Source: Nitrosopumilus sp.
GTDB taxonomy: Archaea > Thermoproteota > Nitrososphaeria > Nitrososphaerales > Nitrosopumilaceae
Length of the DNA: 64,000 nt
NCBI GenBank assembly: GCA_965214775.1
Contig: OZ243974.1
Span: forward strand, 352,001 to 416,000
Direction: 5' to 3'
The notes beneath the pieces are model-generated. The model was not told the DNA's origin and searched no databases. It was given only the letters and a program-made list of their open reading frames with translations. The translations under genes and the position numbers were made by a program. Positions 45,876 to 63,567 of the stretch are shown here, piece after piece; within the stretch, counting starts at the first letter, position 1, and each line of letters starts with the position of its first letter.

Positions 45876-45879
45876 CTCT

Positions 45880-46247: not shown

Positions 46248-46640
46248 CTAGAGCCAAGTCAGTCCGCCCGGATCACTACCGGCACCAGGTTCCCACATGG
46301 CAGCCACCACCGCCTCTGCGATCCACTTGTTGTACAGCCATATCCTCAGCTTTACCTCATATTCAGCAAATTGTTCATGTGCGTATCCATCTTGTTGTAC
46401 AGCCATATCCTCAGCTTTACCTCCTGCACCACATTGGACCACTTGAGGGCCATTACGCCCTCGCCGAACATGCGCTTTATGGACGATATTACGATCTCGA
46501 CTATCCATCTGCTACCAAAGCCGACAGTGCTCTTCGAGTACCGCAGGTTCTCCTGTCTTTCCTCCTTTGAGAGGTTGCCCACCGACACCTCGGGGCCGCC
46601 CCCGAGCTGCCACCGTACAAGCATGCCCCACTTGTCGCCT
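46248..46640 (-). pseudogene. IS5-family transposase C-terminal remnant with internal duplication
   Basis: GFGSRWIVEIVISSIKRMFGE...EVKLRIWLYNK; a ~38-bp segment is duplicated at ~46321 and ~46386. Confidence 0.7.
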
Positions 46641-46662
46641 GTGCCCTTGCTCTAGTAAATTC

Positions 46663-46744
46663 GTACAACTTCAGGTCCTATTTAAACCGCCTAGGAATCT
46701 AGGAAGTATTTGCTTGCCAGTATAAATGGGACCTGAAGTTGTAC
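46663..46744. mobile_element. 82-bp MITE, IS66-like ends, 8-bp TSD GTAAATTC
   Basis: TIRs GTACAACTTCAGGTCC / GGACCTGAAGTTGTAC; TSD at 46655-46662 and 46745-46752. Confidence 0.85.
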
Positions 46745-46777
46745 GTAAATTCCAAGCCTGCAATGACTGGCCACAGA

Positions 46778-46879
46778 TGTTTGATGCCCAACTATGTCTG
46801 CAATGGAGCCTGATCATAAGATGCCGCCCAGAAAATGTAAAATGTTTGCAGCCAGTATAAATAGAACCTGACGTTGTAC
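46778..46879 (-). mobile_element. Solo IS66-like end
   Basis: Inverted homolog of 26858-26951. Confidence 0.7.
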
Positions 46880-46903
46880 ATAAAATATATATTTTATGTA
46901 TAC

Positions 46904-47746: not shown

Positions 47747-48503
47747 TGGATGATAAAATGATGCGAAAATTAGCTACAAAAAAAGAGTCCCGATTGGAAC
47801 AATCGAAAAAGATTACGCAGTCACAGGTATTCTTTCCGTAATCTCAGAACTTCCGAATATTGGCAAAATGGTGTTCAAAGGCGGCACTGCGCTAAAAAAA
47901 GTCTATTTTGACGATTTTCGATTTTCAGAGGACATAGACTTTACATGCTTGGAAGACGTGTCTGAAGAATTGCATTCATTGTTAGACCGCAAAAAGGACA
48001 GTCTCGGGTTTACTCTGACTGATATTAAAAAAGAGACCACGGCAGGAAACAGCAAAAAGCTTACGGTAAAATACCGCGGATTTAACAATTATCCAAACAA
48101 CGTGAGAGTCGACTTGAGTTTAAGAGAAAAAGCACAAAACGAATCTCGTAATCTCAAAGTCTTGCACAATTACAATGCAATTCCATCTTTCAGCATCCCG
48201 TCAATGGCCGTAGAAGAAATGATGGCAGAAAAGGTCAGGGCAGTAATTTATTCTGGTGCTCCTCGACATCTTTATGATTTGAGTTATCTTTTGGCTAAAC
48301 AAATACCGTTAAATCCCGGCCTAGTCAGAATCAAAATCCGCCTTTATGGAGAAGATTTCAGTATTGAGAGATTCCGCAGAAGCATAGAAGCAATGGAGAA
48401 GGAGTGGGTTGGAGATTTGAGTCCGTTGCTACCTCAGGATCCGCCTCCGTTTAACGCAGTCTCTGGTAATGTTTTACAAAAAATATCAGAGACAATGAAA
48501 TAG
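47746..48503 (+). CDS. AbiEii nucleotidyltransferase toxin, frameshifted at an A7 tract (47778-47784)
   Basis: IEKDY, VFKGGTAL, RFSEDIDF, EKVRA, RHLYDL. The ATG at 47746 overlaps the antitoxin stop and needs a -1 shift to reach the main frame. Confidence 0.85.
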
Positions 48504-48532
48504 CATCATGACTCTAAAGTTTTGATTGTCAG

Positions 48533-48650
48533 GTAACAGGATAGCCCCTGCCCAGGCAGCAATCAGGCACGAATCTGCCTGCAGCTGTGATTTTCATGCC
48601 TGACCTGCAATGGACGTGACTCCAACTCTAGGCAGGGACTATCCTGTTAC
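48533..48650. mobile_element. 118-bp MITE
   Basis: 20-bp TIRs GTAACAGGATAG(C/T)CCCTGCC; core CAATCAGGCACGAAT...CATGCCT...GGACGTGAC shared with MITE 52424-52516. Confidence 0.75.
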
Positions 48651-48671
48651 TGTATTGTGATCGTCAGAAGG

Positions 48672-49724
48672 TGTCTTATATGGAAATTAGGTTCGCCTAA
48701 GCTTTTGAGAAAAGCCAAGGAATACTTTACCCTTTACCGATCAAGAAAAAAGATGAAAAAGACAGCACTTACAGAACGACAGATAAAGTACGCCACGAGA
48801 CAGCGCAAGAAGGGCAGGACGCTAAAGGCAATAGCAAAGGAGCTGGAAGTGACACCCCAGTACGTGGGCAGGTTGTGCTCCGAGTTTGAAAGGACCGGCG
48901 TGATACACGTGCAAAAGAGCTCCGGGAGACCCGCATCACCGCCGCCCTCCAACGACGAGATCCAGACTGTGCTTCGCCTGTACGCCGAGCAGGACATCGG
49001 CGTGGTGCGCACGGCCAGGCGTGCAAGGGAGGAACTGGATATAAGCTACGACTCTGCATACAGGATAATGAGGGAGAACAATCTGGTATCAAAGTCTGCT
49101 GCAAGATCCGCGCAGCGCAAGTGGCTGCGTTATGAGCGCAAGTACTCTAACGCAATGTGGCACGTGGGCTGGCACGATATGAAGGATCCACGCCTGAGAG
49201 GGTTCAAATTAGTCACGTTTTTGGACGATTCCTCCCGGTGTATCACGGCAGCACGGACGTTTGCCGAGGCCACATCCGAGAACGTGGTGATAACACTCAG
49301 GGAGGCCATAGGCAGATTTGGCACACCGGCTACCATACTGTCTGACAACGGCAGGTGCTTCAACGGCGGCCGTAGCAAGAAGAACATACCCAAGGGGGCA
49401 TGGAAGCCGACTGCATTTGAGGCCGAGCTGCTGGACAGGGACATCGGGCTGATAAACTCAAGACCGTACCACCCAGAGACCAACGGCAAGCTGGAACGGT
49501 TCCATGGCACCATCGAGAAGGAAATCCACCACTATGAGAGCCTGGCAGTATACGTGGAGTACTATAACGAGCGCAGGCTGCACTTTGCACTAGATATGGA
49601 CAAGTGTGAGACTCCGTTGCAGGCCTTCTCGGCAAGGGAGGCCACAGAAACGATCAGAAAAAGCGACCCAAAATGGATGGAGAGGGACATCAATGACTAA
49701 CGAACCTAATTTTCATATAACACA
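48672..49724 (+). mobile_element. IS481-family element, 24-bp TIRs, 15-bp TSD GTGATCGTCAGAAGG
   Basis: TGTCTTATATGGAAATTAGGTTCG...CGAACCTAATTTTCATATAACACA; TSD at 48657-48671 and 49725-49739. Confidence 0.92.
48753..49700 (+). CDS. IS481/rve-type DDE transposase (first catalytic Asp apparently Gly)
   Basis: N-terminal HTH, WHVGWH (expected WHxDW), LDDSSR, ILSDNG, PETNGKLER. Confidence 0.9.
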   Translation: MKKTALTERQIKYATRQRKKGRTLKAIAKELEVTPQYVGRLCSEFERTGVIHVQKSSGRPASPPPSNDEIQTVLRLYAEQDIGVVRTARRAREELDISYDSAYRIMRENNLVSKSAARSAQRKWLRYERKYSNAMWHVGWHDMKDPRLRGFKLVTFLDDSSRCITAARTFAEATSENVVITLREAIGRFGTPATILSDNGRCFNGGRSKKNIPKGAWKPTAFEAELLDRDIGLINSRPYHPETNGKLERFHGTIEKEIHHYESLAVYVEYYNERRLHFALDMDKCETPLQAFSAREATETIRKSDPKWMERDIND

Positions 49725-49768
49725 GTGATCGTCAGAAGGTATAAAAGAAAATAAACAAAAAATAACTT

Positions 49769-50389
49769 GTGGCATCTCTAGATAAAGATCTTATGATATT
49801 TAATAAGATTGATGCTGAAAAAATCAAGCAAGTCTTCGACAGGATTGATGAATCCATTGTGCGTAAACCGTTAAAAAAACAGGTGCTGGATGAGATAACA
49901 TGAGACAATTTGTCGGATATGGATGTACTTAGCATCAACCGAATATGCTTTAACTTTACAATATCCGATCAGCCATATGAGATGACCAAAACGATAGACC
50001 GTTCTGATATTGACAAAGATAAGCAAGACGTTCTTAAACAATGCTTAAGCTCGCTGAAGAGCAGGCTGTCAAAAGAGATACTAGAAACTGAGTACAACAT
50101 AATGCATTTGCACGACTTTGGTCATTCGCATATAAGGCACCTTCAAATTGCTTCCGAATTTAGGCCGATCTCAAACGATGATGGCAGGATAATCAAAATA
50201 ATCCCATCCCTGGTTTTTTCGGGACATCTTCACAACCTAGGCAGCGAGGACATAAGGCCGCTGAACTTTCATCTTGATCTGCAACACGCCAAAAGATTAA
50301 TGACGGATATACAAAACAGTATCACAAACGTGGAAAAGGAGATACGTACGTTTCGGGAAAAGTTTGGAGATGATGCAATTGCAATATGA
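49769..50389 (+). pseudogene. COMM-domain-like protein (~206 aa) with in-frame TGA at 49901-49903
   Basis: GTG 49769 is in frame with the track ORF at 49910; helical N-terminus plus C-terminal LQIASEFRPI..IIPSLVF..LNFHLDLQHAKRLMTDIQNSI. Confidence 0.55.
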
Positions 50390-51095
50390 AATAGAATATC
50401 ACGATCCAGAAAAAATTATGGATTATGGACAAGATTCCTCTGCAAAGTGGTTAAGATCATCCCATGAGAGAAATATCGCAGATTGCTACGAAAAGGAATC
50501 CGAGAGGAAGTTAATGCACGGTAGGCGTTATTGGAGAGATGAGTATTATGAGACCGTACTGGACAAAATTAGGATTCGTCTGCCACAGAAAATGTTTGAA
50601 AATGAGTCGTGTTTTATCCTTTTGCCCGAAACGAGCCATATGGAACATCTTCATAATGCTATCAATGATTTGCCATATATGGTACGAGTTTTTACTAATG
50701 CAAGTGAGGTAGACAACAAATCATCCACTGCCATGCCTATGTCTGCTAGACATGTGAAAACGTCAGAAGGCGCAAGTGAACCGACTGCACATGTCTTGGA
50801 GAATCTGGCAGATGACTGCGGACTGCCGCGCGAATATGCCTCAAAAATTAGAGACTCCTTGGAGGACGCATCACGGTTCATATCTGACAAGGGAGCCAAG
50901 TACAGCATACTGCACGAGCTGTTCACAGATCCGGAGTTTCCAGACTGGAAGATGATCAAAGTCACCTTCAAGATAGACACGGAATCATCACACGCCGCCC
51001 ATGACGAGCTCAAAGATCAGATCTATGAGATCGTCAGCTCGAAACTGACCGATCACATACTTGAAAACATAATCATAAAATTTGACAGGCCATGA
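50373..51095 (+). CDS. Hypothetical protein preceding HEPN (possible degenerate MNT-like C-terminus)
   Basis: C-terminal FTDPEFPDWKMIKVTFKID; overlaps both neighbours. Confidence 0.65.
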   Translation: MQLQYEIEYHDPEKIMDYGQDSSAKWLRSSHERNIADCYEKESERKLMHGRRYWRDEYYETVLDKIRIRLPQKMFENESCFILLPETSHMEHLHNAINDLPYMVRVFTNASEVDNKSSTAMPMSARHVKTSEGASEPTAHVLENLADDCGLPREYASKIRDSLEDASRFISDKGAKYSILHELFTDPEFPDWKMIKVTFKIDTESSHAAHDELKDQIYEIVSSKLTDHILENIIIKFDRP

Positions 51096-51559
51096 TCAAG
51101 CCCACGGAGTTCCTAGATCATGCAGAGAGGATAATCACAAATGAAAACTGCCCACAGGAGGTGGAGTTCAGATGTGCCGTGAGCAGGGCATATTATTCCC
51201 TGTATCACGAGGCGTACGCAAAGGTCTTCAAATACAAATCTGTGCTGTCTGACGTGATCTGCGAGATTCTGGACAAAAAAGGCCGACCGTATGATAAATC
51301 AAGGATCGAATCGCTAGACCAAAATTACATATTGAGAATAGGCACCAACCTTCACCAAACAATACCCAAAACATTGACAATGATGGGAGAAAAAAGGATA
51401 GGGAACGATTTTACCGCATTCAGGGATGATAGAAACGTTGCAGACTATGACATACATGATCGGTATCCCGACAACAGGGCACGCGAAAAGGTAGCGGCGA
51501 TGAAAAAATTAATTCTAGAGATAAAAAACATCAACGGTGTCAAGTGTGGTAAGTTTTGA
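51092..51559 (+). CDS. HEPN-domain protein
   Basis: RCAVSRAYYSLYH and DRNVADY (R-x4-Y). Confidence 0.85.
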   Translation: MIKPTEFLDHAERIITNENCPQEVEFRCAVSRAYYSLYHEAYAKVFKYKSVLSDVICEILDKKGRPYDKSRIESLDQNYILRIGTNLHQTIPKTLTMMGEKRIGNDFTAFRDDRNVADYDIHDRYPDNRAREKVAAMKKLILEIKNINGVKCGKF

Positions 51560-51759
51560 TAAACCGATCATCATGATTTAGCCGCAGGCCAGAACAGAAC
51601 CAGAAAACGATTCGTACTCTTGTTATTCGGCATCATACTCCCATGAGACGGAAGCGATCAGGAACCGCACAAATTGGGGGCATATTGACAAGAGTGGGCG
51701 TTCAAGTCATCTGCCTGTAACTGCCAACCGACCATTGTAGGATCTGGTATGAGGCGTGT

Positions 51760-51940
51760 ACGAGACGTTATATCAAATCTTATCTGTAGCGGACGCCATA
51801 TTATCCGTGTTGGGCCCAAGAGCCGAAGTAAACTTGCCACACATGAGGGCGTGTATGAGACTGGCTCAGAGTAGGCGGACGACGAAATGCCACATAATCG
51901 AGGGTAAATGGGAGTTTTCCGTTCAGTTGGGCACACACAC
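51760..51940 (+). ncRNA. Candidate IS110 bridge RNA
   Basis: The non-coding left end holds four segments matching the target and donor junctions in the expected order (see findings); boundaries are approximate. Confidence 0.55.
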
Positions 51941-51950
51941 TTTGATCAAA

Positions 51951-51960
51951 AAGGAGGTGA
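51951..51960 (+). promoter_or_regulatory. Shine-Dalgarno of the IS110 transposase
   Basis: AAGGAGGTGA 4 nt before the ATG at 51965. Confidence 0.75.
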
Positions 51961-51964
51961 TAAA

Positions 51965-53124
51965 ATGATCAACATAGGAATAGATGTTCATAAGAAGACA
52001 TGTATAGTAACCGTCAAGGACCAGACTGCAAAGATACTGGAGCAGACGGAGTTTTCCAACACGTCATACGGGATAAAAAAATTTGCCGTACAGATCAAAA
52101 AGAGATATGCACGACGCAAGATCCGGGCAGTCTACGAGGCAACAGGAAACTATTGGATACTGCTGCATGATATGCTTGAAGACAACAAGATAGACACAAA
52201 GCTTGCGCATCCTGCCAAGACCAAGGCCATAGCGCATGCAAAACTAAAGGACGACAGGGTGGACTCTGAAGTGCTGGCAGACCTGCTCAGGACGGACATG
52301 GCGTACGAGTCGTTCGTGCCTGACAGATACTACAGGGACCTGCGCGGCCTCTCAAGGGCCAGGATCGACGCCGTACGCCTGGGAACCGGCGAAAAGAACA
52401 AGATAACTGCCATACTTGCAAAGGTATGTGGTCACCTATCCCCGCCAATCAGGCACGAATTAGTATACACAATTATGATTTCCATGCCTAGCCAGTAAGG
52501 GGACGTGACCACATACTTGCAAAGTATGCCGCAAAGCCCCCTACAAAGGGAAGATTCACCGTACAGGGAATCCAGTGGATGCACGAGCTCTGCAGAGACG
52601 ACGGCAAAAAGAAGTACAACATCTCAGAGATGGACAAAATGATGATAAGCACAGGACTGGACAGGATTGAGATGATGCGACAGCAGGTAGTGGAATTTGA
52701 GCGCAGGATTGCAGCCATCTGCATTAACGATCCCAGAATCAAGCTCCTGATGACGGTTCCCGGAATAAGCTACGTGACCGCACTTGCCATAATATCCGAA
52801 ATAGTGGACATAAAGAGATTTGCCACAGCAGAAAAGCTTGCAGCATACGCGGGCCTGATACCGTCACATCACAACAGCGGTGAGACCATACGGGGCGGAT
52901 CCATAACTCGGACTGGTTCTGCATGGCTTCGGTACGCCATCGTAAACGCAGCCACGGTAGGGGTGCAATACGATACCAGGATGGGTGAGAGATACGACAG
53001 AATAGCCAGACGCAGGGGAAAGCAAAAGGCCAAGGTGGCAGTAGCCAGAACGCTTGCAAAGGTGATCTGGCACATGCTGACTGATGAAACGGAATACCGC
53101 ACGCAGGACAAGGAACTCACGCAA
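51965..53124 (+). pseudogene. IS110 transposase (segments 51965-52423 + 52525-53124 + 63290-63334; 367 aa reconstituted)
   Basis: IGIDVHK, YEATG, KDDRVDS, LMTVPGI, YAGLIPS..NSG, AVARTL. Confidence 0.92.
52424..52516. mobile_element. 93-bp MITE with 8-bp TSD TTGCAAAG inserted in the IS110 transposase
   Basis: TIRs GTATGTGGTCAC / GTGACCACATAC; removal restores ILAK-YAAKPP. Confidence 0.9.
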
Positions 53125-53137
53125 GGAACTGGGAAGT

Positions 53138-54286
53138 TTACGGTAGATGATTCTCCCTGGGAAATGCCGGTAGACTGGATTTTGAGGCGTTCTGAATGAT
53201 GGTCTTCCACTTGTCCTTGCCCTGAATCCTGATGCCTGCCCTGTCTGCTGGTGTATCGCCTTCCAGTCCTTGGTGGGGCCTGATGTAGTTATGGTGAATC
53301 TGCATTCCTGTGAATATGGCAGAGTCATCCTTCTTGATTCCCCTGACTACCTTTTCCCTTGCCCTCAGTGTATTTCCGTTGAAGGACTCCATCTGGTTGT
53401 TGTTCATGTCACCCGCCATGTGGATGTGACGGCGGTGCTCGGTGTCCTTGTGAAGAAAGTTCTTTGGCCTGTACTGCTCATTCCACGCATGGTGAAAGTT
53501 GGCAGCTCCGTCAGAGATCAGGGTCTTTGGGATTTTTTTGGCCTTTCTTTTGGCATCTGTAAACATCGGGGAGACATCATCATTTCCCTTATGTTCTGCC
53601 ACCATCTGGGATAGCCAGAAACGGGTCTCGCTGTCCAGCATCGCAAAGAGGTATTTTCTGTCGCCCTTGATTTTCAGGTAGAGCTCGTCTGTCCTCCATT
53701 GCTCACCTACTTGTGGAGTTATCCTGTCTAGATACTTCTCCATGAGGTTTACATATTTCTTGACCCAGTTCTGAACCGTCCTGTATGTGACGGTAATTCC
53801 AGTCAGTGTCAATGATTGTGCTGTCTTTCTTGATGATTCCCCGTTAAAGTAGAGGTTCATTGCCATTGTGATTTGGTCTGGGGTGGCACTCATGTTTTCA
53901 AATCCTAGGTTGATTGAAAACTTGCGTTTACAGTCATTACATCTGAACATCTGAACATCATGGTTCTTGTTGTGTCGTACACCCATTTTTACTATGTTTG
54001 CAGAATTGCAATACTTGCAGGAGTCAATGGTGACTTCAGGGATTACAACATCATCTTTGACTTTTTGGTGAATCTTGGCAGATATTTCAACTGCGTGGAC
54101 ATGCTTGCAGCAAGTCCTGCGGAACTGGTGATCCTCGCAGGAGCAGGCCCAGCCATATTCAGTGGAAATAACGTCATGCTGTTTGTCTCTTGATTGTGAG
54201 TTTACTTTGTAATGGCTTTCATTTATTCGTACAATTTGGTTTTGTTTTTCTGCTATCTGCTTTCCTCTGATCTCTCTTTGGTTCAT
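53138..54286 (-). CDS. IS6/IS240-type DDE transposase with N-terminal SWIM finger and zinc ribbon
   Basis: CSCED..CCKH, CKYC..CNDC, WRTDELY, LISDG, NNQMESFN, HHNYIRPH..L.G.TPA. Confidence 0.92.
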   Translation of the reverse strand: MNQREIRGKQIAEKQNQIVRINESHYKVNSQSRDKQHDVISTEYGWACSCEDHQFRRTCCKHVHAVEISAKIHQKVKDDVVIPEVTIDSCKYCNSANIVKMGVRHNKNHDVQMFRCNDCKRKFSINLGFENMSATPDQITMAMNLYFNGESSRKTAQSLTLTGITVTYRTVQNWVKKYVNLMEKYLDRITPQVGEQWRTDELYLKIKGDRKYLFAMLDSETRFWLSQMVAEHKGNDDVSPMFTDAKRKAKKIPKTLISDGAANFHHAWNEQYRPKNFLHKDTEHRRHIHMAGDMNNNQMESFNGNTLRAREKVVRGIKKDDSAIFTGMQIHHNYIRPHQGLEGDTPADRAGIRIQGKDKWKTIIQNASKSSLPAFPRENHLP

Positions 54287-54429
54287 GCGGATCGCACCTC
54301 AAAAATTAATATTGGATTGGAATCAAAGAGATTCAAGGACTCGGTGTCAACCGCGTTCTTCGTCATTGGGAGGATCATTCCCTCTGACTCTTGATTTTTC
54401 TTCATAGTCTTTCTCGCTCCTTGATTCAT
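54283..54429 (-). CDS. Possible 48-aa ORF upstream of the transposase
   Basis: ATG at 54429; its stop overlaps the transposase start (ATGA). Confidence 0.35.
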   Translation of the reverse strand: MNQGARKTMKKNQESEGMILPMTKNAVDTESLNLFDSNPILIFEVRSA

Positions 54430-54517
54430 ACCAATAAATAGTTGATATATCATATAAATCTATACCAATAATTAATTGACATAAAAACATATAATGGGAG
54501 GTTGTGTGATTCATTGT

Positions 54518-54736
54518 ATGGGGACTGTCGTATACCGCCAGCGTGGAGACAAAGAATATGTTTACTACGTCTATTATGATGAAAAGCGAAGAACAGAGGT
54601 TTATTGCGGACTGTCTTCAGATCCGGAATCTGACAAAAAAATCCTGCAATGCAAAAAAAACGATCTTACCAAACAGAAAGCCAACATTACAAAAGAACTT
54701 GAAGTAATTACAAAAAAAATCCAACGTGGAACATGA
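54518..54736 (+). CDS. Small putative DNA-binding protein with coiled coil
   Basis: RGDKEYVYYVYYDEKRRTEVYCG beta-hairpin motif; ATGA overlap with the MTase. Confidence 0.6.
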   Translation: MGTVVYRQRGDKEYVYYVYYDEKRRTEVYCGLSSDPESDKKILQCKKNDLTKQKANITKELEVITKKIQRGT

Positions 54737-55762
54737 TGTCTGCTACAAAAAACACCCCGAAAACAATGATCCCGTTCATAAACACAATCCAGTGTGGCGA
54801 CAGTGCTAGGATTCTAAAACAGATTCCAGATGATTCGATAGATTTGGTTATCACGTCACCCCCCTACTTTCGGCAACGGGAATACGCTGGCTGTGAGGTG
54901 GGTGGTGAAAAACACGTGGAAGACTATATCGATGCGGTCATGGATGTGTTCCGTGAATGTGTGAGAATTACAAAGAGGTGCGGTAGCGTTGTCTTCAACA
55001 TGGGTGACAAATATGAAAACGGTTCTTTAATGCTGATCCCTTACAAATTTGCAATCCAAGCCATGAATGTAAAAAATGTAAAACTGGTAAATGATATAAC
55101 TTGGATCAAAAAGAATCCCACACCTAGACAGTTCAAAAGGCGCCTTGTAAGCAGTACTGAGCCATTCTTCCACTTCGTAAAATCATCCGATTACTACTAT
55201 GACATAGATGCATTTCAGGTCCGTAAAGACGACGACAGCCTGCCACCCACCAAAAACACGACGATTGGTAACAGATACAGAACAATGATCAGGGATTCGG
55301 AGCTTACCGCATCCGAAAAAAGAAAGGCGGTAAGAGAGTTAAACAAGGCCGTCAAGGAAGTGAAGGACGGCACAATAACAGGATTTAGAATGAAGATACG
55401 CGGCATACACGCACCTGCATTCGGCGGACAAAATGGTGGCAGAAAGATTCAGCTTGACAAGAACGGATTTACAATAATCCGGATGTCTGGAAATCCTCTA
55501 AAGCGGGATACGATAACCAGTAGTGTAGAAAGCCTCAGATGGAACAAACATCCTGCCATATATCCAGAGGTCGTAATATCGGAGATGATCCATCTCCTCA
55601 CACCCCCCCCCCAACAAGACCATAATCCTTGATCCATACATAGGAAGCGGCACTACGGGAGTGGTTGCCAAAAAGACAGGCAGGCAGTTTATAGGCATTG
55701 ATATAAATCCCGAATTTTGTGATATGGCCGCCAAACGTATTGAATTGGTTGATGAAATATGA
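54733..55762 (+). CDS. Beta-class N4/N6 DNA methyltransferase, frameshifted in a C10 tract (55603-55612)
   Basis: TSPPY, HPAIYP; the SAM motif [11 protein letters not shown] lies in a different frame after the poly-C. Confidence 0.9.
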
Positions 55763-56862
55763 ATGTAGAACATCACCACTGTCTGAAAATATTAAAAAAG
55801 TGCCTCAAGGAGGCCGGTGTGCATGTGCCAGTATGTGGTGATGACGTAAAAAAACACCTAGATGTCATTATTTCAAACAGTGAAAAAAAGAAGGCGGTTT
55901 TGGCAGTAACAGTGACATCGCTGACAAAGAAGGCGGTAGACCCGCAACAAGACATCCGGCGTCATCAGAGTGGGCTTGATGGTGGATATTCAGGAAGAAC
56001 CCTTGATACCAAGACAGTCACCCCGTTTCTCAAGGCCAATCAGTTTCCAGCCATGTCGGAGTCCGGATGGCTTACACGATCCTTGGAACAGAATCAACCA
56101 TACACATTGGATTACAAAGGCAGTGTCACTCCACATAAACTAAAGCAGGCATTCTTGTGCACGTTGGACAGGGTGCAAAACCACGATGAATCCCCCATAG
56201 AACTGCTAACATATTTGTTGAGTGGATTAATCAAACAACGAGATGAAAATACCAAACTCAGACTAGCCAAACCCGTAGACCTGCCAATCAGGACAATCAT
56301 GTCATATCTAAATAAGCATTTCATGTCTCAGTATAGCAGTGCAGGAGGTTCCAGACTACCGGTGTTGGCGATATACGCTGCATATCAACAGATGATTTCC
56401 GAGGTGGGGCGATATAGAAAACATGTCCTAAAACAACTCGAATCACACACATCACCAGACAGGCGTTCTGGTGCAACTGGAGACATTGAGGTTGCAGACG
56501 AGCAATCCAAAATTTTTGAGGCCGTAGAGGTGAAACATCGGATTAGAATAACGCCTTCTTTGGTAAGAGAAGCACATATGAAATTCAAATCAGAGCCAAT
56601 CAAACGGTACTATCTATTGACCACGGATGAGCAGGATCAGAACAGTGAAGAGATAACTGCCGAAGTTGTAAAAATCAGTCAGATTCATGGATGTCAGGTT
56701 ATTGTAAACGGGGTCATGAACACCCTGAAATACTATCTTCGTCTATTAAAAACACCCGACGACTTTGTGCATAATTATGTGCGTCTGATAGAAAAGGATG
56801 AGTCAGTAAAGTTCGAACATAGACAACGCTGGAATGACATTGTTCAAAATCAGGGAGCGTGA
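55759..56862 (+). CDS. Putative type II restriction endonuclease
   Basis: GDIEV...FEAVEVK PD-(D/E)xK-like motif; translationally coupled to the MTase. Confidence 0.75.
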
Positions 56863-57252
56863 CACTCCAATGGGACGGATTTATCATGGCAGACCAACCA
56901 CTCACACCAACGGAAAATGTCCAAAATGCGGAGTAATTGGATTAATGGATTTGTTGGGTACCGCAACCATATTTGATCTTTTTTGCGTTCCAACAATTGA
57001 GTTTTACACGCCTGATTTAGGTATTACGCAACAATACGCGACAAGAGTCTTGCCCCCTCCGGAAGATATCGCGTGGAAGGCACGGTAGTAAAGACCCCGG
57101 CAGGCAGTGTCACCTGTGGGGCATGCCGGCAATCACAAATCCTTGAATGCCATCGACCGTTTGCAGGGGTGTCTGATCATAAAGCACTTCAAGAATTTTT
57201 ACCGGCCGGTACAAGCCCTTGCCGCAGGTCGGGCCCGCCGTGATCGCGCTGG

Positions 57253-60200
57253 CTAGCCGAGGCCTGCCGCATGCAGCAGCCGCACCTGCCGGGCCGACAG
57301 CTCGGCGCCGTACACGCGCAGCTCGTCAAGAACCGAGTCGATCCTGTCGGGATCCCACCAGGTGGTGGTCCTCACGGTGAACGCATGGTCGTTTGTCGTG
57401 CTGCCTGCCAGCCCCAGGCCCCTGCGGTATTGGCCATAGTCCCGGTGCTCGCCGTCGATATACGCATTCAGGCCCTCCTTTGCGCCCGAGCCGTCGTACG
57501 TGAATGCGATATGGTGCCAGGCCCCGTCTGACATGTTCAGGTGGTTGGGGGTGTGCACGTTTATGAACGTGGAGTTGTCGTGTATCAAAAGCAGGATCCT
57601 GTTGGGCGCCCCTCCCCATATCCACACGTACAAGCCGGTATGGCCGAACGACTCTGCCTTGGACATTATCATGGTGCTGTTGTTGACGGGCACGTCCTGC
57701 CTGAGCCAGAACGCTATGCTGAACGGGTCGGTGCGCCCAAAGTCAAAGTCGGCCTCGCCCGCAAGGGCGACGTTCGTAGAGCCGTCAAGCTGCAGCCCCC
57801 TGCCTATCCTGCCAGGCACGTACGTGACATCCCCTGCAGCCGCCGTGCCGTTGTTGTCCCCCGTTGCATCTGTCAGGCTGCCCTCAAAGGACAGGCCTGC
57901 CACGAGCTCCTCGTAGGGGGCCGTTACGGCCACGGGATCGGCGATCGTGACCCGTATGCCGCCCATCGGACTTCCGTCCCCGTCCACCAGCCCGACCCTG
58001 AACGTGCCTCCCGCCGCTGCGTCCGCGTCGTCGGCGGTCCTCAGCAGTATCGTATACTGGGAGCCGGGCGCGTTGATCGTGTGGTACCTTACGTCGTACG
58101 CGGAGCCTGCGTGGTTGTCAAGCTCCATCGTGCGGCGCCGCTGCCCCGGAAAGTCCGTGCACACCGCAGTGTCGCACCCGGAGCCCTCCGGGAATCCCCC
58201 AAAGTCGTCCACGGTAAGCGAGCTGCTGTATATGGCAAGGGCGTCGTGCTGGTGCCTTGCGCCATCAACGGTCACCGTATACTCGAAGGTCTGTCCCGGA
58301 AATATCCTGTCGGGGCCCGTGATCCTCCAGGTGGTGTCCCCGTCCGTTATCGTCCTCGTGGACGGCGGCATCACCGTTACCGGTATGCCTCCCACCTGGT
58401 TGTTGTTGCTGTCCATCATGCCGACTGTGGCCTGCGTGCCCGCCGGCGCATCGGCTGCCGGCTGCAGCAGTATGGTATGGCTGGATCTGGACTTTTTCAT
58501 CTTGTTGTGCATGGCAGTATACGGCGAGTCCTCGTCACTGGCTATCTTGTACGTGTCGTGCTTTTGCTCTGGAAACCCCGCGCATATCACGGTCTGGCAG
58601 TCCGTATCGGAATCGTGCCATCCGAGGTCCCGCTCTGTACACGGCAAGGGCCTCCTCTCGCGGCCTTGCCCCGTCCTCGAGTGTTACGGTATACTCGAAG
58701 GTCTGCCCCGCAAACACCCTGTCCGGACCCGTGACGCTCCACGTGGATCGGCCCGTGCTCACGGTCTGGGAGACGTCCAGGACGGCGTCAGAGGCGTCCA
58801 CGTGTATGACAAACCAGTCCCTCTGCGAGTTTGCAGAGCCGTCTGTCGCCGTGCATACTACCTCGGTGAATCCGGGAGCAAACGTCGATCCGGACTCGTG
58901 CGTGCACGATACTGCCACGACCCCGTCTACGAGGTCGGAGGCAGTCGGCGCATCGTAGCTGACTGCCATTCCACGGCCCGCCGGATCATCTACGTCTATG
59001 TCGCGCAGGCCGGAGATGGCAGGCGGCGTGGTGTCCCGTATCGTAACAGTCTGGGTGGCCGTCGCCGCGTTGCCTGCAGAGTCGGTGGCAGTCCACGTGA
59101 CTGTCGTGTTGCCCAACGGGAACGACTCTGGGGCGTCGTTTGTAATTGTGGGGCTGGGATCGGCAACGTCGGTAACAGTGGAAGTCCCATAGTCGCCGGC
59201 ACTCAGGACCGTCATGATGCCGGCAGCCTCGGCCGTATGATCGGCGGGTGCCATGATCCGGGGCGGCGTGGTGTCCTGTATCGTAACAGTCTGGGTTGCA
59301 GTAGCCGCGTTGCCCGCAGAATCGGTGGCAGTCCATGTCACTATGGTATCGCCAAGCGGGAACGATTCCGGTGCGTCGTTTGTGATTGCCGGATCCGGAT
59401 CCGCAATGTCGGATGCAGTGGCCTGCCCTATGGATACGGCAGTCAGCACGCCGGAAGCCTCGATTGTGACATCTGGGGGTGTGGTGATGCTCGGCAGTGT
59501 CGTGTCCTGTATCGTAACAGTCTGGGTTGCAGTAGCCGCGTTGCCCGCAGAATCGGTGGCAGTCCATGTCACTATGGTATCGCCAAGCGGGAACGATTCC
59601 GGTGCGTCGTTTGTGATTGCCGGATCCGGATCAACATCGTCTGAGGCCACGGCGTCGCCCAGACCCACGTCGGAGGCAGGGGTGAGGACGGCAGTCGCCT
59701 CGGCCGTCACGTCCTCTGGCGCCGTGATTGAAGGCGGCGTCGTGTCGCCTGCGTCACCGTCGTATATCCGAATGTCGTCAAGCTCCGCATCCTCGTTGTT
59801 TGAGCTGGAACGCGCCTCGAACCTCACCTTGAAGGAGTCCGACGCGTTTGAGAGGACATAGCTGTGGTGATGCCAGGCGCCGTCGTCGCCTGCGTTGTTT
59901 GCGGTAAAGTTTGCAAGTTGGATCCACGTGGTGCCGCCGTCACTGGAGGTGTGGACGTATATCCCCTCGTTGTTTGAGACGTCGGCCCCCGTCGCGACGA
60001 ACCTGTAAAAGCTGAGCACGGGCTGGGACATCTGCGTCAGGTCCACCACGTCTATCATCGTCATCGAGCACACGTCGTCGCAGTCCTCGGCTCCCCCCAC
60101 CTTGTTTCCGGGCTGGGATCCCGGAACTGGCTCTGTCGGGTCTGGCCTGATCGACCAGTACTCGTCATCGCCCGTGGTCAGATGCCACCTTGAGAGATCC

Positions 60201-61897
60201 ATCCCCTCAAAGTCCTCTGCAAAGGAGTCGACGGTGGCCTGCACCGGCGCATCAAGCGTCACGGTGACGCTGCTTGTGGCGGTTGCGCCGTCCCCGTTTG
60301 CCGATTCCACTGCGATGGTGTGGTTGCCGTTGTCCAGTCCGGTCAGGACCGATTCAAAGCTTGCAGTGACGTCGGATATGTGGGTCACCTCGACGGGATT
60401 CGTGGCAGGTACAATGCCGTCTACGTAGACCTTCACGTACTCTATCCCAGAGCCCTCAGGCTCGTAGACCCACCCCGATACTGCGATGTCTGGCACGGTT
60501 ACGGTGGATCCTGCTGCCGGGGCCGTGATCGTTATGACTGGCGGCGTGGGATCCTCGATGTTTACGTTCACCAGGTTCGAGGCAGGCGACAGCCCGTGCG
60601 CGTTTTTGGCAAATATCCTAAAGTACATGTCGTAGCCGGGATATCCGGTATGCTCGATGCTCGTGGTCGTTTCAGAGACGGTGTCGTGAAGGTTCCATCT
60701 CTGGGTGTCCGGCGACCTTTCTATTCTAAACGAGGTGATGTTAGAGCCCCCGTCGTCCGGGATGCTCCAGGCAAGCGTGATGTTGTTTCCCGACAGGGTG
60801 TAGGAAAGGTCGTCGACCGGGTCGGGTACGGTCTGCGTGGACGGCCCGACGATCGAGATCACCCCCTCCCTTGTGTGGCCGATTCTCTTGTCCGTGACGG
60901 TGTACCTTATGGTGTCAGATTCCGGCGTGGAGCTTGCCGGGGTGTACTCGAGCCGGATGGCCGTGCCGTTTGTGGTCGGGATCTTTTCGGTGGTGCTGGT
61001 GTGGCTCAGGCTTCCCTTTGTGGGGTGCTCTTTGAGATAAAACGTCAGATAGTCGCCGTCGGTGTCTATTGCGTTTATGTCGACTGTGACCCTGTCGTTT
61101 GTGGCCACGTCTATGTCCCTGTTCTGGACCGTGGGAACCTGGTTTCTGGTTGCGATGTTGTTGCAGTCAAGCGATGTCACGGTTCCTGCGATAAACGAGT
61201 TGCCCCGGCATTCCTTGCCGATGTACCCCTCCGAGACGGACGGCTGGGACAGGGAGGCTGAGGCGGGAAGGTTTGTCCAAGAGCCGTTCTGCCTTATCTT
61301 CATGCCGGTGAACTTGCTCATCGGAATTGACGAATAGTCGTCTGTGGCAGAGACGGTTCCCTCTATTCCAAAGTTGCCATGGTAGACATTATTTGGATTC
61401 ATGAAAAGCTGCGCCTGTGGGTACGGGATTGTCACGTCCGGGGTCGTGACATACACCTGGACGTTGCTTGTCAGGTACTTTTGTATCTTTACTGATATGT
61501 CATCGCCGGGATCAACGCGACCGTTTGATACTAGGTATTCTTGGTAAACATCAAGATCGCCTATCACATAATTAAATCCATAATAGGTGCTCAGGACGGC
61601 GACGCATCCAACGTTTAGGAAATGTCCTTTTGTAACTCCTGCCTCCACCCATTCCCCGGTATTTGCAACCAGCCAGCCGGCAGCTGCTGCGGTATTGTCG
61701 CATTCCGTCCTGTCTATCCACAGATCCGGCGAATCCAGCTGGTACTCTATGCCTTCGATTGGGGTAAGACGGCTGGTCTGCTGCCATACATGGCAACGAG
61801 GGTCAGCACAGTCAAAGATTCCAAATGCGTCCTGGCCATATGCAACAATACACAGTGCAAAGACTGCAAAAAACAAAACGGGAAACTTGGTCATCAT
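57253..61897 (-). CDS. Secreted multidomain protein (putative glutamic-peptidase-like domain, Ig, FN3, MAM-like, HYR x4, 2 unknown repeats, LamG); frameshift at ~58640
   Basis: Signal peptide; LAWSIPDDGGSNITSF (FN3); DTTPP.I.AP..VTWTATDSAGN (HYR); WHHIAFTYDG..LDELRVY (LamG). The ORFs 58535-61897 and 57253-58647 share a split repeat. Confidence 0.85.
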
Positions 61898-62889
61898 TTT
61901 ACCGCCGACAAGCTGTTAAAGACGGGCAACAGCTCATCAAGCGTGTGATAACGTGAATTTACGCCCATCGACGTATGTTCATCATGATGGAAGCTGATGC
62001 CTGCACGATAATGATTCAGGGCATTTCCGCCCTCAAATGCACTTACCGTTTTCCCGTCATGCGTCATCTCCCTGAAGCCCTCCCCGTAGTTGCCGGGCTG
62101 GGAACCAAAAACTTCTTTGATATATTCTATCTCATCTTCAATCTCGTCAAGAGGAACAACGCTATACTCGGCCCAAACCCTAAATCCCTCGGAGAACTTC
62201 AATTCATAGTTGGTCACGTTTTCGTTTAATACAAAGGTAGTTGGAACAAACTGTATCCTCAGCTTGCAGTCACCTGAAGGGTAGCAAGTATTGTCTGCAT
62301 ACAGCAACCGCTGCCCATCAGGAATGTATGTGGGCATCCAGTCCTCAATATGGAACCCTACTCTGGGGGTTATGGAGTATTTTTCATGCTGTGTTGCAGA
62401 CAGTCTTATCAGGTTGTCGGGGCCGACATCGTCGGGGGTTATGTCACTGTCCATGATATTTTCATAGTAGGGCCACGGGGGAGGGTATCTTGCAAGTGTG
62501 GATCTTTTGATCTCCCGCCCGTCATCGACGAACTCCACGGGAGACGAGGCACTCAGCACCACAAATCCGTCGACTTCTCCGGCATCGGGGCCGTCGATGT
62601 TGCTGCCGTGCCCGGCTTTTGCCGCCTCCGGCAGCTGCAGGTCATGGCGTTCTGCTGCCTGTGCTACCGGCACCCATCCCTTTTGCAGCAGTTTTTGCAC
62701 CGAGCCCTCACTGACGCAGGCAGGCGTTCCGCGCGTGGTCTCCATCAGCGTCTTTGAATCCCGGCACTGTATCTCCTCTAGCGCGATACCGCTTTGAAAT
62801 TGTTTGTAGGGAGTGTCAGTTTCTGCAAATGCAGGCATTGCAGATAATCCGATTGCCAGGAACAGTCCCAGTAGCGTCTTGTAGATCAC
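61894..62889 (-). CDS. Secreted protein with the thaumarchaeal P.KQ..SG..IQC..PACV..KL..KGW motif
   Basis: Signal peptide AMPAFA|E; ATGA overlap with the downstream gene. Confidence 0.85.
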   Translation of the reverse strand: MIYKTLLGLFLAIGLSAMPAFAETDTPYKQFQSGIALEEIQCRDSKTLMETTRGTPACVSEGSVQKLLQKGWVPVAQAAERHDLQLPEAAKAGHGSNIDGPDAGEVDGFVVLSASSPVEFVDDGREIKRSTLARYPPPWPYYENIMDSDITPDDVGPDNLIRLSATQHEKYSITPRVGFHIEDWMPTYIPDGQRLLYADNTCYPSGDCKLRIQFVPTTFVLNENVTNYELKFSEGFRVWAEYSVVPLDEIEDEIEYIKEVFGSQPGNYGEGFREMTHDGKTVSAFEGGNALNHYRAGISFHHDEHTSMGVNSRYHTLDELLPVFNSLSAVK

Positions 62890-63386
62890 TGGTTTTTCAT
62901 AAAAGGGATTCTATAAAAGTGATCCCTGCAATCTAGTCGTAAGTTATGCCCCATCAACGGATCAGATCTGGTTGTTGCGTAATTCCACTTGATTGATTTC
63001 TACAACATCAGTCTTCCCAGAAGTTACCCACAAGACGGCTCCAAACCTGAAATAACACAGATCAGACTGCCTGCAGGCCCGCATGTAGCCACCTGCACCG
63101 CCATGAGTCTGGCACATCCGGGAGACTGACTTAACAGTCCCATTCATAAAATCCCGCCAAACGACAGTGAACACGGCAAAATACCAAACGCAGATTACAC
63201 AGAACCTTGTAACTATTTTTTATTTATTAGATCTACCGACATTTCCCAAGGAGAATCATCTACCGTAAACTTCCCAGTTCCTCACGCAAAGAAAGTATAA
63301 AGCGATGGAATGTCTAGTAGATACGTCTGACTGAACAACGCACACTCGCAGCGGCCCGTGCAGGGAATCAGCATAATTTGATATGG

Positions 63387-63567
63387 GAGTTTACCCCTCA
63401 GGCGACACTGCTGGTCGGAGCCTTGATCACCGTGCCTACCACGTCGTATTTTCTGGAGGGGGTGAGATCTTACTGGCTGTGGTACAAATTTGCCCCTTGG
63501 GCAGCACTGCCAGCTATGGCCTTCAGGACCATGCCCCCGCGCCGTATCTTCCAAAGTGGGTAAATTC
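63387..63567. repeat. Two tandem degenerate copies of the 83-bp family B repeat
   Basis: GAGTTTACCCCTCAGGCGACACTG... and AAATTTGCCCCTTGGGCAGCACTG...GGGTAAATTC. Confidence 0.7.

What the first reader, a model, noticed from the sequence alone, without database searches (positions are those of the whole stretch)
51640..51940. Candidate archaeal IS110 bridge RNA with all four guide segments readable
Seen: the putative left junction is CCCAT-GAG-ACGGAAGC and the right junction is GATATGG-GAG-TTTACCCCTCA. The upstream non-coding region contains, in order: CCCAAGAG (51815-51822; 7/8 match to left target+core CCCATGAG); GTAAACT (51828-51834; reverse complement of AGTTTAC, core+right target); ATGGGAG (51908-51914; identical to left donor+core); TTCCGT (51917-51922; reverse complement of right donor ACGGAA). 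Established: IS110 bridge RNAs carry LTG-RTG then LDG-RDG with this same/antisense polarity. Inference: this is a compact bridge RNA variant, with guide halves only 5 and 2 nt apart rather than hairpin-separated. The matches are short and chance is not excluded.
Basis: partly seen in the sequence, partly recalled or inferred. Interest (0 to 1): 0.82.

Follow-up and report, generated by a model that had tools for sequence, protein, structure and literature searches.

The report
Archaeal IS110 bridge RNA, remapped

Summary
Window 51765-51964 is the left-end non-coding region of a dead IS110-family element and encodes a bridge RNA. All other genome copies start at 51765, after an AG core at 51763-64, not at 51645. 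The other two are helix strands: CCCAAGAG is part of stems P1 and TBL, and TTCCGT is the basal stem of the donor loop. The real left-target guide is GTATGAG+AC at 51853-61, 3' of a hairpin. The real left-end donor guide is GACG at 51881-84. The RNA is a three-way junction carrying two hairpin-separated internal loops, as in IS621. Guides covary with each copy's own flanks: 115/156, 42/60 and 45/68 matches, and at most 1 of 20000 permutations reached any of these. Eleven of 24 base pairs show compensatory changes. Guide order in each loop is reversed relative to IS621. With a 9-bp subterminal inverted repeat and 7/3-bp terminal extensions, this matches IS1111-type elements, yet the RNA lies upstream of the transposase. 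It is a new variant of a known kind. Expression is untested.

The parts
51641..51656 (+). It is unique flanking DNA, not part of the element.
   Evidence: No other genome copy extends left of 51757. Contigs of other copies diverge at 51757/8.
51763..51764 (+). Left copy of the core dinucleotide AG. This is the true left junction: ..GTACG-AG-ACGTT..
   Evidence: all 25 copies have AG before the first element base, and the preceding base varies in C-type copies.
51765..51964 (+). Left-end non-coding region (200 nt), the bridge RNA gene. The covariance model matches 51765-51950.
   Evidence: model R1, built without A-type sequences, scores 99.4 bits, E 1.1e-23. Supported also.
51770..51778 (+). 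Left subterminal inverted repeat (ATATCAAAT), 5 nt in from the element end. Counting the core, the left extension is 7 nt.
   Evidence: 9-bp perfect inverted repeat with 63376-63384.
51814..51819 (+). Helix P1, 5' strand (GCCCAA). It pairs with 51927-51932 and closes the three-way junction.
   Evidence: GCCCAA/TTGGGC here and GCCTGA/TCAGGC in C-type copies, with 2 pairs changed on both sides.
51820..51824 (+). Target-loop basal stem, 5' strand (GAGCC). It pairs with 51863-51867.
   Evidence: GAGCC/GGCTC, GAGTC/GACTC, GAGTT/AACTC, GGGTC/GACCC, GGACT/AGTCC. Four of 5 pairs are compensatory.
51828..51834 (+). Right-target guide (GTAAACT) on the 5' strand of the target loop (51825-51835). It is antisense to core + right flank, AG+TTTAC at 63388-63394.
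   Evidence: guide vs own right flank 42/60 matches against 27.8 +/- 3.2 when permuted (1/20000). Further cases.
51836..51850 (+). Hairpin separating the two target guides (GCC..GGC).
   Evidence: GCC/GGC vs ACC/GGT, compensatory.
51853..51861 (+). Left-target guide GTATGAG (51853-59) plus a 2-nt handshake AC (51860-61), on the 3' strand of the target loop (51851-62). It has the same sense as left flank + core + first 2 element bases.
   Evidence: 115/156 matches to own flank against 59.2 +/- 7.4 when permuted (0/20000)..
51863..51867 (+). Target-loop basal stem, 3' strand (GGCTC).
   Evidence: As for 51820-51824.
51875..51879 (+). Donor-loop basal stem, 5' strand (GCGGA). It pairs with 51918-51922 (TCCGT), giving one G.U pair in this copy.
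   Evidence: a 5/5 complement in every intact lineage (ACGGA/TCCGT, GCGGA/TCCGC); 90% of cells paired. RNAalifold did not recover this stem on alignment A3.
51881..51884 (+). Left-end donor guide (GACG) on the 5' strand of the donor loop (51880-88). It is antisense to element bases 2-5 (51766-69), with one G.T wobble.
   Evidence: 45/68 matches against 33.5 +/- 2.9 when permuted (1/20000). Lineages with CACT, TGCC and TGCT ends carry AGTG, GGCA and AGCA.
51889..51905 (+). Hairpin separating the two donor guides.
   Evidence: GCC/GGC vs ACC/GGT, and ACCG/CGGT vs ACCA/TGGT.
51908..51917 (+). Right-end donor guide ATGGGAG (51908-14) plus handshake TTT (51915-17), on the 3' strand of the donor loop (51906-17). 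It has the same sense as right end + core + first right-flank bases (63383-63392).
   Evidence: ATGGGAG is conserved together with the ..ATGGG-AG right ends, so there is no covariation. The next base follows the first right-flank base: T here and A in C-type copies.
51918..51922 (+). Donor-loop basal stem, 3' strand.
51927..51932 (+). Helix P1, 3' strand (TTGGGC).
   Evidence: As for 51814-51819.
51965..52423 (+). Transposase N-terminal piece (153 codons), DEDD_Tnp_IS110 domain.
   Evidence: PF01548, E 2e-24.
52424..52524 (.). A 93-bp MITE (52424-52516) plus the second copy of its 8-bp target duplication (52517-24), interrupting the transposase gene.
   Evidence: about 50 genome copies match this segment; terminal inverted repeat and TTGCAAAG on both sides; loose ends at 52424 and 52516/8.
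52525..53124 (+). Transposase middle piece (200 codons), Transposase_20 domain.
53125..63289 (.). A 10.2-kb insertion bounded by inverted IS6-type ends (53125-63281), plus the second copy of an 8-bp duplication (63282-89; first copy at 53117-24).
   Evidence: inverted ends and TCACGCAA on both sides. IS240-type DDE transposase at 53138-54286 (-); passenger genes.
63290..63387 (+). Right end of the IS110-family element: the last 14 codons + stop (63290-63334), the right subterminal repeat (63376-84) and the 3-nt extension GGG (63385-87).
63388..63389 (+). Right copy of the core AG.
63390..63470 (+). The target: the 5' end of a repeat of about 83 bp with palindromic ends. In empty copies the repeat begins G[T/C]A[A/C]-GAG-TTTACCCC.
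   Evidence: 80-odd copies, and empty copies show GTAA/GTAC/GCAA before GAG.

Best explanation
Window 51765-63387 is one copy of an IS110-family (DEDD transposase) insertion sequence. Its native length is about 1357 bp. It inserted site-specifically into the terminal inverted repeat of a MITE-like repeat of about 83 bp, at G-T-A-x-G / AG / TTTACCCC. It was later inactivated by a 93-bp MITE and by a 10.2-kb insertion with IS6-type ends.

Its 200-nt left end encodes a bridge RNA of about 120-150 nt, transcribed in the same sense as the transposase. A long-range helix P1 closes a three-way junction with two arms. Each arm is a basal stem, an internal loop and a hairpin.

[quoted passage not shown] - Donor-loop 5' strand: pairs over only 3-4 nt with element bases 2-5.
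- Donor-loop 3' strand: matches right end + core, and continues 1-3 nt into the right target (the second handshake).

By analogy with IS621 and ISEc11, a transposase tetramer loaded with this RNA would bring the circularised element's right-end/left-end junction together with the target and exchange strands at the AG (= CT on the other strand) core.

What is shown here: the boundaries, the RNA helices (by covariation) and guide-flank covariation. What is inferred: transcription, RNA ends, protein binding and catalysis.

Read on the strand where the core is CT, the geometry is exactly that of IS621: a sense guide on the 5' strand, and an antisense guide plus handshake on the 3' strand. It follows that the RNA and transposase genes are inverted relative to the recombination site when compared with IS621. 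This is the arrangement reported for IS1111-type seekRNAs. Here, though, the RNA lies upstream of the transposase.
For: Boundaries.

Protein family: (PF01548 86.6 bits, PF02371 86.4 bits); the C-type relative aligns to ISCro4 and IS621, E about 1e-11, with the GID, E, DxxD and S positions matched in the printed ISCro4 alignment.

Structure:
- 15 sequences, 97.5% of 360 cells paired, 6 of 24 pairs changed on both sides. Slid controls gave 20-42% paired and 0-1 such pairs.
- 23 sequences, 93.6% of 550 cells paired, 11 of 24 pairs changed on both sides. Slid controls gave 24-47%.
- RNAalifold recovers P1, the target-loop stem and both hairpins on its own.
- G.U pairs (GCGGA/TCCGT, GCCTGG/TCAGGC) fit only the transposase-sense strand.

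Guides:
- left-target guide, 30 copies and 26 distinct pairs, 115/156 matches against 59.2 +/- 7.4, 0/20000 permutations as high.
- right-target guide, 14 elements with both ends and 12 distinct pairs, 42/60 against 27.8 +/- 3.2, 1/20000.
- left-end donor guide, 17 distinct pairs, 45/68 against 33.5 +/- 2.9, 1/20000.
- 16 further copies from 7 other genomes. Left flank matches guide over 8-9 nt in 9 of 16. Right flank matches in 5 of the 6 where a right end was found.

A model built without any A-type sequence finds the window copy at 99.4 bits.

Literature:
- IS621 loop order and handshake guides: PMC11208158, passages read.
- Reversed order in IS1111-type seekRNAs, 7/3-bp extensions and rare upstream non-coding regions: PMC11187229, passages read.
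Against: - No RNA evidence. No run on record as RNA holds the locus, so the transcript, its ends and its strand are inferred.
- The single-sequence fold is not more stable than shuffles: MFE -43.7 kcal/mol, z = +1.02, and 173 of 200 shuffles fold at least as well.
- No Rfam 15 family matches.
- The donor-loop basal stem was not recovered by RNAalifold on the model-fitted alignment, and only 81% of its cells pair there.
- The left-end donor guide is only 3-4 nt, lacks core pairing, and is mismatched at one position in most lineages.
- ATGGGAG is invariant, so it has conservation but no covariation.
- Some copies do not match their own flanks: 1 of 6 at G+2169387 and G+2342976; 1-2 of 5 at three nested or recombinant copies.
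- Two lineages need a 1-2-nt bulge between the right-target and core pairing.
- Copies are related, so permutation counts overstate independence.
- This window copy is dead, and it holds the only A-type transposase gene in the genome.
Confidence: 0.88

Rival explanations
1. One reading: a compact bridge RNA in which LTG (51815-22) and RTG (51828-34) lie 5 nt apart and LDG (51908-14) and RDG (51917-22) lie 2 nt apart, with no hairpins, and with the element starting at 51648.
For: The four strings exist in that order. A 6-mer match such as TTCCGT/ACGGAA after one of the 4 upstream GAG sites arises in only 415 of 5000 shuffled non-coding regions.
Against: - No other copy shares 51648-51756.
- CCCAAGAG does not change with the flank in 15 C-type copies, and its bases form compensatory pairs in P1 and the target-loop stem.
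- TTCCGT pairs with 51875-79 in all lineages.
- The segments that do covary with the left flank and the left end lie elsewhere.
Confidence: 0.02
2. The left end is only a 5' UTR/promoter with protein-binding sites. Its resemblance to flanks comes from history (nested insertions, gene conversion between copies), not from RNA guiding.
For: There is no RNA evidence. Nested and recombinant copies do exist. The region contains a TATA-like TTATAT and ends in a Shine-Dalgarno-like AGGAGG before the ATG.
Against: - Compensatory base-pair changes in 11 of 24 pairs indicate selection on an RNA fold.
- Three separate short blocks covary with three different DNA partners (left flank, right flank, own left end) in the polarity predicted by the IS621 structure, across at least 7 guide classes and 8 genomes.
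- History cannot explain an antisense match to the right flank.
Confidence: 0.05
3. The RNA is made from the opposite strand, antisense to the transposase leader, and acts as an antisense regulator or as a guide of the opposite polarity.
For: Helices are largely strand-symmetric. Reading the opposite strand would place a sense-type guide first.
Against: - G.U pairs in the donor-loop stem (3 of 7 A-type copies) and in P1 (L061, A3, B) would become A.C mismatches on the other strand.
- On the other strand, each guide would read away from the core with the handshake at its 5' end. That does not match the solved IS621 geometry.
Confidence: 0.04

Closest known systems
IS621 bridge RNA (IS110 group; Durrant et al. 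2024, PMC11208160; Hiraizumi et al. 2024, PMC11208158)
   Same: - DEDD + Tnp-domain recombinase.
- RNA encoded in the left end, upstream of and in the same sense as the transposase.
- Two internal loops, each with two guides separated by a hairpin.
- A dinucleotide core included in the pairings. AG here is CT on the other strand.
- 2-nt handshake guides 3' of the 3'-strand guides.
- One long and one short guide per loop.
- Insertion into a repeated palindromic element.
   Different: - Guide order in each loop is reversed relative to the transposase direction (right-target guide before left-target guide; left-end guide before right-end guide). The genes are therefore inverted relative to the recombination site.
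- A 9-bp subterminal inverted repeat, against 2-3 bp.
- A long-range helix P1 joins the two arms in a three-way junction.
- The donor guide on the 5' strand is only 3-4 nt and does not pair with the core.
- The protein is only distantly related (phmmer E 1.2e-11 for the C-type relative).
- The host is archaeal.
IS1111-type seekRNA elements (ISEc11, ISKpn4, ISPst6, ISPa11; Siddiquee et al. 2024, PMC11187229)
   Same: - Subterminal inverted repeats with terminal extensions of 7 bp (left, counting the core) and 3 bp (right).
- The segment complementary to the top strand precedes the segment matching it.
- Targets are repeated or structured sequences: REP, attC, transposon ends.
- No true target duplication.
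   Different: - The long non-coding region and RNA are upstream of the transposase here. In nearly all IS1111 members they are downstream. The paper mentions a few exceptions such as ISMtsp17 without analysing their RNAs.
- The repeat is 9 bp perfect, against the usual 11-13 bp.
- Whether the transposase belongs to the IS1111 clade was not resolved here.
ISEc21 seekRNA (IS110 type, upstream non-coding region; PMC11187229)
   Same: Upstream non-coding region required for movement. A short RNA carries matches to both target strands.
   Different: In ISEc21 the top-strand match lies 3' of the bottom-strand match, which is the opposite order to the element here.

Membership tests
IS110 family in the broad sense (DEDD transposase elements) | [quoted passage not shown] | tested here: met
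   86.6 and 86.4 bits, against cut-offs of 29 and 21.3, on the two ORF pieces of the window copy.
IS110 family in the broad sense (DEDD transposase elements) | Catalytic D, E, D, D and Ser residues | tested here: inconclusive
   the intact C-type relative aligns GID, E, DxxD and an S-containing motif to ISCro4. The same motifs are visible by eye in the window pieces. No residue-by-residue alignment to IS621 was made.
IS110 family in the broad sense (DEDD transposase elements) | Site- and orientation-specific insertion, with the same short core at both junctions and no longer target duplication | tested here: met
   AG at both junctions. A-type copies are always at GTAxG-AG-TTTACCCC in one orientation.
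Bridge RNA / seekRNA | Structured RNA with two internal loops in the long non-coding end | tested here: met
   five helices, with 11 of 24 pairs compensatory.
Bridge RNA / seekRNA | Loop segments covary with target flanks and with the element's own ends | tested here: met
   The right-end guide is conserved and does not covary.
Bridge RNA / seekRNA | RNA is expressed, binds the transposase and is needed for recombination | not testable with these tools
   No RNA run holds the locus.
IS110 group (IS621-like) | RNA in the left end, upstream of the transposase | tested here: met
IS110 group (IS621-like) | 5' strand of each loop is the sense (left) guide and 3' strand is the antisense (right) guide | tested here: not met
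   the order is reversed in both loops.
IS110 group (IS621-like) | Subterminal repeat absent or only 2-3 bp | tested here: not met
   a 9-bp perfect inverted repeat.
IS1111 group | Subterminal inverted repeats (7-17 bp) with terminal extensions of 7 (or 6) bp and 3 bp | tested here: met
   9 bp; AG+ACGTT on the left and GGG on the right. The same 7/3 layout holds in the C-type and other lineages.
IS1111 group | [quoted passage not shown] | tested here: met
   The definition comes from PMC11187229.
IS1111 group | Long non-coding region downstream of the transposase | tested here: not met
   200 nt upstream against about 53 nt downstream (63335-63387).
IS1111 group | Transposase clusters with IS1111 relatives over its full length | not tested
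   No labelled IS1111 reference set was available. The best plasmid relatives (37-38% identity, haloarchaea and Rhizobium) are annotated only as 'IS110 family'. One Rhizobium relative has more spacer downstream (259 nt) than upstream (139 nt), but its ends were not mapped.
Rfam families | Match to a curated covariance model | tested here: not met
   over 45000-60000 at E <= 1, the only hit was an irrelevant lncRNA model (E 0.13).

The most novel reading that the evidence does not exclude
This Nitrososphaeria lineage is a third architectural class of RNA-guided DEDD elements. It has IS1111-type recombination polarity, ends and guide order, yet the bridge RNA sits upstream of the transposase and is scaffolded as a three-way junction. 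On this reading it would be a living intermediate of the proposed move of the RNA module between element ends. It would also be a natural case showing that the polarity of the recombination site is independent of the direction of the RNA and transposase genes. The many naturally reprogrammed guide sets in one genome would make it a ready archaeal test system.
Probability: 0.3. Interest if true: 0.55.

Novelty: new variant of a known kind. Interest (0 to 1): 0.38.

Why it matters
It gives a fully mapped bridge RNA in ammonia-oxidising archaea: four guides, two handshakes and five helices. The mapping rests on covariation within a single genome, where at least 7 guide classes each match their own insertion sites.

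It combines features that the literature uses to separate the IS110 and IS1111 groups. That bears on how the RNA module moved between element ends, and on whether guide order is tied to RNA position. It also shows how these elements home into MITE ends and into other insertion sequences in a repeat-rich archaeal genome.

It does not reveal a new mechanism. The 'hairpin-less compact bridge RNA', which would have been surprising, is not there.

Tried and rejected
- Rfam scan of 45000-60000 at E <= 1: nothing relevant.
- Single-sequence folding: not more stable than shuffles, so the structure rests on covariation.
- Subfamily B (2 copies, 79% identity): truncated after about 377 nt by other insertions, so it has no right end.
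- A 5' stem-loop (left-end bases 20-45): considered and dropped. The central pair does not covary in C-type copies (my reading).
- An earlier idea that CATAATCG in the donor hairpin loop was the donor guide: dropped, because that loop is not conserved in C-type copies.
- Public runs: no RNA holder listed. The 17 holders are contigs of unknown or DNA kind.
- Laying 4 contig sets: this only confirmed repeat boundaries and copy variants. It shows nothing on expression or circles.
- Classifying the transposase as IS1111 or IS110: PDB and plasmid searches do not discriminate, and I built no tree. Two distant relatives were inspected but their ends could not be mapped from single copies.
- Supplementary files of the papers were not seen. 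Supplementary Fig. 2 of PMC11187229 and Extended Data Fig. 10 and Supplementary Table 5 of PMC11208160 may already show upstream-RNA IS1111-type or archaeal members.
- Not in print as far as my three searches go ('bridge RNA', IS110, archaea, Nitrososphaera, seekRNA, IS1111): no listed paper describes bridge RNAs of Nitrososphaeria. A 2026 preprint (10.64898/2026.10.21.760802; section 2.4 read) catalogues 32,190 bridge RNAs in 86 models and may include this type.

Rows dropped before counts:
- One search kept 30 of 284 loose seed hits, namely those with an ungapped 3'-strand block and AG at both places. L061 was missed by the seed and is not in that count.
- One search used the 14 of 30 copies that had a right end in range.
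- One search found right ends for 6 of 16 copies.
- L086 (from unpublished G132) was not analysed.

Full report
**What is at the locus**

The ORFs at 51965-52498 and 52579-53199 carry the two domains of IS110-family transposases (PF01548, PF02371). The gene is broken twice.

- A 93-bp MITE with an 8-bp duplication lies at 52424-52524. Its sequence has about 50 genome copies.
- A 10.2-kb segment lies at 53125-63281. It has inverted IS6-type ends and an 8-bp duplication (TCACGCAA at 53117-24 and 63282-89), and it carries an IS240-type DDE transposase.

The right end of the element is at 63290-63387.

**Boundaries**

The 21-mer is unique. The sequence to its right is the first part of a repeat of about 83 bp with palindromic ends and 80-odd genome copies. 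In empty copies GAGTTTACCCC is preceded by GTAA, GTAC or GCAA.

BLAST of 51560-53135 against the genome shows every other copy starting at query 198-204, which is window 51757-51763. Aligning 25 copies with their flanks shows that all start ACG[T/C]TATAT directly after AG. Contigs from four public runs break away at 51757/8. In the C subfamily the right end is ..CATATGGG, followed by AG and variable flanks, and the base before the left AG varies. The core is therefore AG.

The element has a perfect 9-bp subterminal inverted repeat (51770-78 / 63376-84). Five element bases lie outside it on the left, or seven with the core. Three lie outside it on the right.

**The RNA**

I compared three subfamilies in this genome: A (this one, 7 copies with the region), B (2 copies) and C (15 copies). 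I added relatives from other Nitrososphaeria.

Two kinds of column appear. The first kind is constant blocks that pair with compensatory changes:

- P1: GCCCAA/TTGGGC against GCCTGA/TCAGGC.
- Target-loop stem, five versions: GAGCC/GGCTC, GAGTC/GACTC, GAGTT/AACTC, GGGTC/GACCC, GGACT/AGTCC.
- Two hairpins: GCC/GGC against ACC/GGT.
- Donor-loop stem: ACGGA/TCCGT, GCGGA/TCCGC and GCGGA/TCCGT with G.U.

On the MAFFT alignment of 15 non-A sequences, 97.5% of cells pair and 6 of 24 pairs change on both sides. Slid controls gave 20-42% paired. On the model-fitted alignment of 23 sequences the figures are 93.6% and 11 of 24, with slid controls at 24-47%. That alignment leans towards the structure. RNAalifold recovers four of the five helices on its own. 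It does not recover the donor-loop basal stem, which rests. The single-sequence fold is not unusually stable (z = +1.02).

**The guides**

The second kind of column is four short variable blocks in the internal loops.

1. **51828-34, GTAAACT.** This is the reverse complement of AG+TTTAC, the core plus right flank. In C-type copies the block reads ATGATCT, GTGATCT, [T/C]GGAACT or TTAATCT, and the right flanks read ATCAT.., ATCTC.., TTCCT.. and ATTGA... Guide against own right flank gave 42/60 matches, against 27.8 +/- 3.2 after permutation (1 of 20000 as high).
2. **51853-61, GTATGAG+AC.** This equals left flank + AG + the first two element bases. In other copies it reads CTTATAGAC, TCAGTAGAC, CTTACAGAC, CAAACAGAC or TTCACAGAC, each matching its own flank. 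The count was 115/156 against 59.2 +/- 7.4 (0 of 20000). Sixteen more copies from seven other genomes behave the same way. Within-genome pairs include GCGAAAG against GCAAAAG, and CCAGTAG against TAAGTAG.
3. **51881-84, GACG.** This is complementary to element bases 2-5. Lineages whose ends read CACT, TGCC, TGCT, CGCT or CGTT carry AGTG, GGCA, AGCA, AGCA or AAC[A/G]. The count was 45/68 against 33.5 +/- 2.9 (1 of 20000). This guide is short, and in most lineages it is mismatched at one position.
4. **51908-17, ATGGGAG+TTT.** This equals right end + core + the first right-flank bases. ATGGGAG is invariant, as are the right ends. The following base tracks the first flank base: T here and in four other lineages, A in C-type, and a mismatch in the L062 lineage.

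CCCAAGAG is P1 plus the target-loop stem. TTCCGT is the donor-loop stem. Its match to ACGGAA at the false junction occurs in 415 of 5000 shuffles. The two guides of each loop are separated by hairpins, so there is no compact arrangement.

**Comparison with known systems**

In IS621 each loop is stem, left guide, stem-loop, right guide, with 2-nt handshake guides 3' of the right guides. The left guides pair with the bottom strand and the right guides with the top strand. The core is CT, and the RNA comes from the left end (PMC11208158, passages).

Here the 5' strand of each loop is the antisense guide, and the 3' strand is the sense guide plus handshake. If the DNA is read on the strand where the core is CT, the geometry becomes identical to IS621. 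The RNA and transposase genes are therefore inverted relative to the recombination site.

Siddiquee et al. (PMC11187229, passages) report exactly this reversed order for IS1111-type seekRNAs. They define IS1111 elements by subterminal repeats with 7- and 3-bp extensions, and this element has both. They and Durrant et al. (PMC11208160, section 12) place the IS1111 RNA downstream of the transposase. They note a few exceptions with an upstream non-coding region (ISMtsp17) without describing those RNAs.

The element here is thus IS1111-like in its ends and polarity, and IS110-like in RNA position. The transposase is about equally distant from IS621 and ISCro4 (E about 1e-11) and from plasmid-borne relatives (at most 38% identity). 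I did not resolve its clade.

**Distribution and state**

A covariance model built without A-type sequences finds 36 places in this genome. One is a second, degenerate copy in the window at 17350-17541 (-). The model finds matches in 9 of 151 sampled genomes of the class. All 9 are in the window's own family: the own genome plus 8 of 80 others. There were 0 matches in 70 genomes of other families. One of the nine, G132, is unpublished.

The window copy holds the only A-type transposase gene in the genome. Three C-type copies have intact ORFs. The A-type RNA genes are therefore relics, unless a related transposase can use them.

**Limits**

There is no expression, end-mapping or biochemical evidence. 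Copies are related, so the permutation counts overstate independence. Even so, at least seven distinct guide classes each match their own sites.

Noticed in passing
window 52424-52524: A 93-bp MITE with a 12-bp terminal inverted repeat and an 8-bp duplication (TTGCAAAG) interrupts the transposase gene. About 50 copies at 73-97% identity are scattered over the genome.
   Followed up: partly
window 53125-63289: A 10.2-kb unit bounded by inverted IS6-type ends with an 8-bp duplication. It has a single IS240-type transposase at one end only (53138-54286, minus strand). Its passenger genes include an N6/N4 DNA methylase (54733-55632), a ConA-like lectin-domain protein and a 1120-aa HYR/Ig-domain surface protein. 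It may be a transposon-like cargo unit or the product of an IS6 rearrangement.
   Followed up: partly
window 63388-63470 and 80-odd genome sites: A repeat of about 83 bp with palindromic ends (GAGTTTACCCCTCAGG ... CCTGAGGGGTAAACTC), often in tandem or nested pairs. It is the homing site of the A-type element. Its own origin and mobility are unknown.
   Followed up: partly
window 27920-28015: A solitary right-end remnant of the A-type element (about 95 bp) abutting another copy of the target repeat, next to a tRNA-like region at about 27100-27180.
   Followed up: no
window 17350-17541 (-): A second, degenerate bridge-RNA gene of a further subfamily (126.8 bits with model R1). Its first bases are damaged, its left-target guide block carries an insertion, and its transposase is truncated after about 55 codons.
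   Followed up: partly
G000:C1:1348576-1348670 (-) and G000:C1:2787936-2788694 (+): Two copies recombined exactly at the DNA that encodes their own left-target guide. One left end stops right after guide + AG and continues with a right-target-like TTCC.. In the other, an internally deleted copy is inserted after guide + AG of a sister copy. The guide-coding DNA mimics left target + core, so the element can hit its own RNA gene. This resembles half-match recombination, the subject of a 2026 preprint of which I saw only the listing.
   Followed up: partly
several genome sites, e.g. G000:C1:181547-182027, 2726224-2726713, 2784518-2785007: Internally deleted C-type derivatives of about 480 bp keep the whole bridge-RNA gene plus the right end but no transposase. 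They are MITE-like non-autonomous elements that carry their own guide RNA.
   Followed up: partly
window 51818/51909 (table 5): Contigs of two runs (X1, X4) join 51818 to 51909, skipping 90 nt between the P1 strand and the right-end donor guide. This is a deletion variant of the RNA gene in some copy or strain.
   Followed up: no
L062, L063, L082: In two lineages the right-target guide needs a 1-nt (GGGTT-A-CT) or 2-nt (ATGAGA-CC-CT) bulge between the flank pairing and the core pairing.
   Followed up: no
G000 genome-wide: At least eight further IS110-family transposase genes (30-38% identical to this one, seven of them in ORFs of 377-391 aa and one of 428 aa) belong to other lineages. Their RNAs were not examined.
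   Followed up: no
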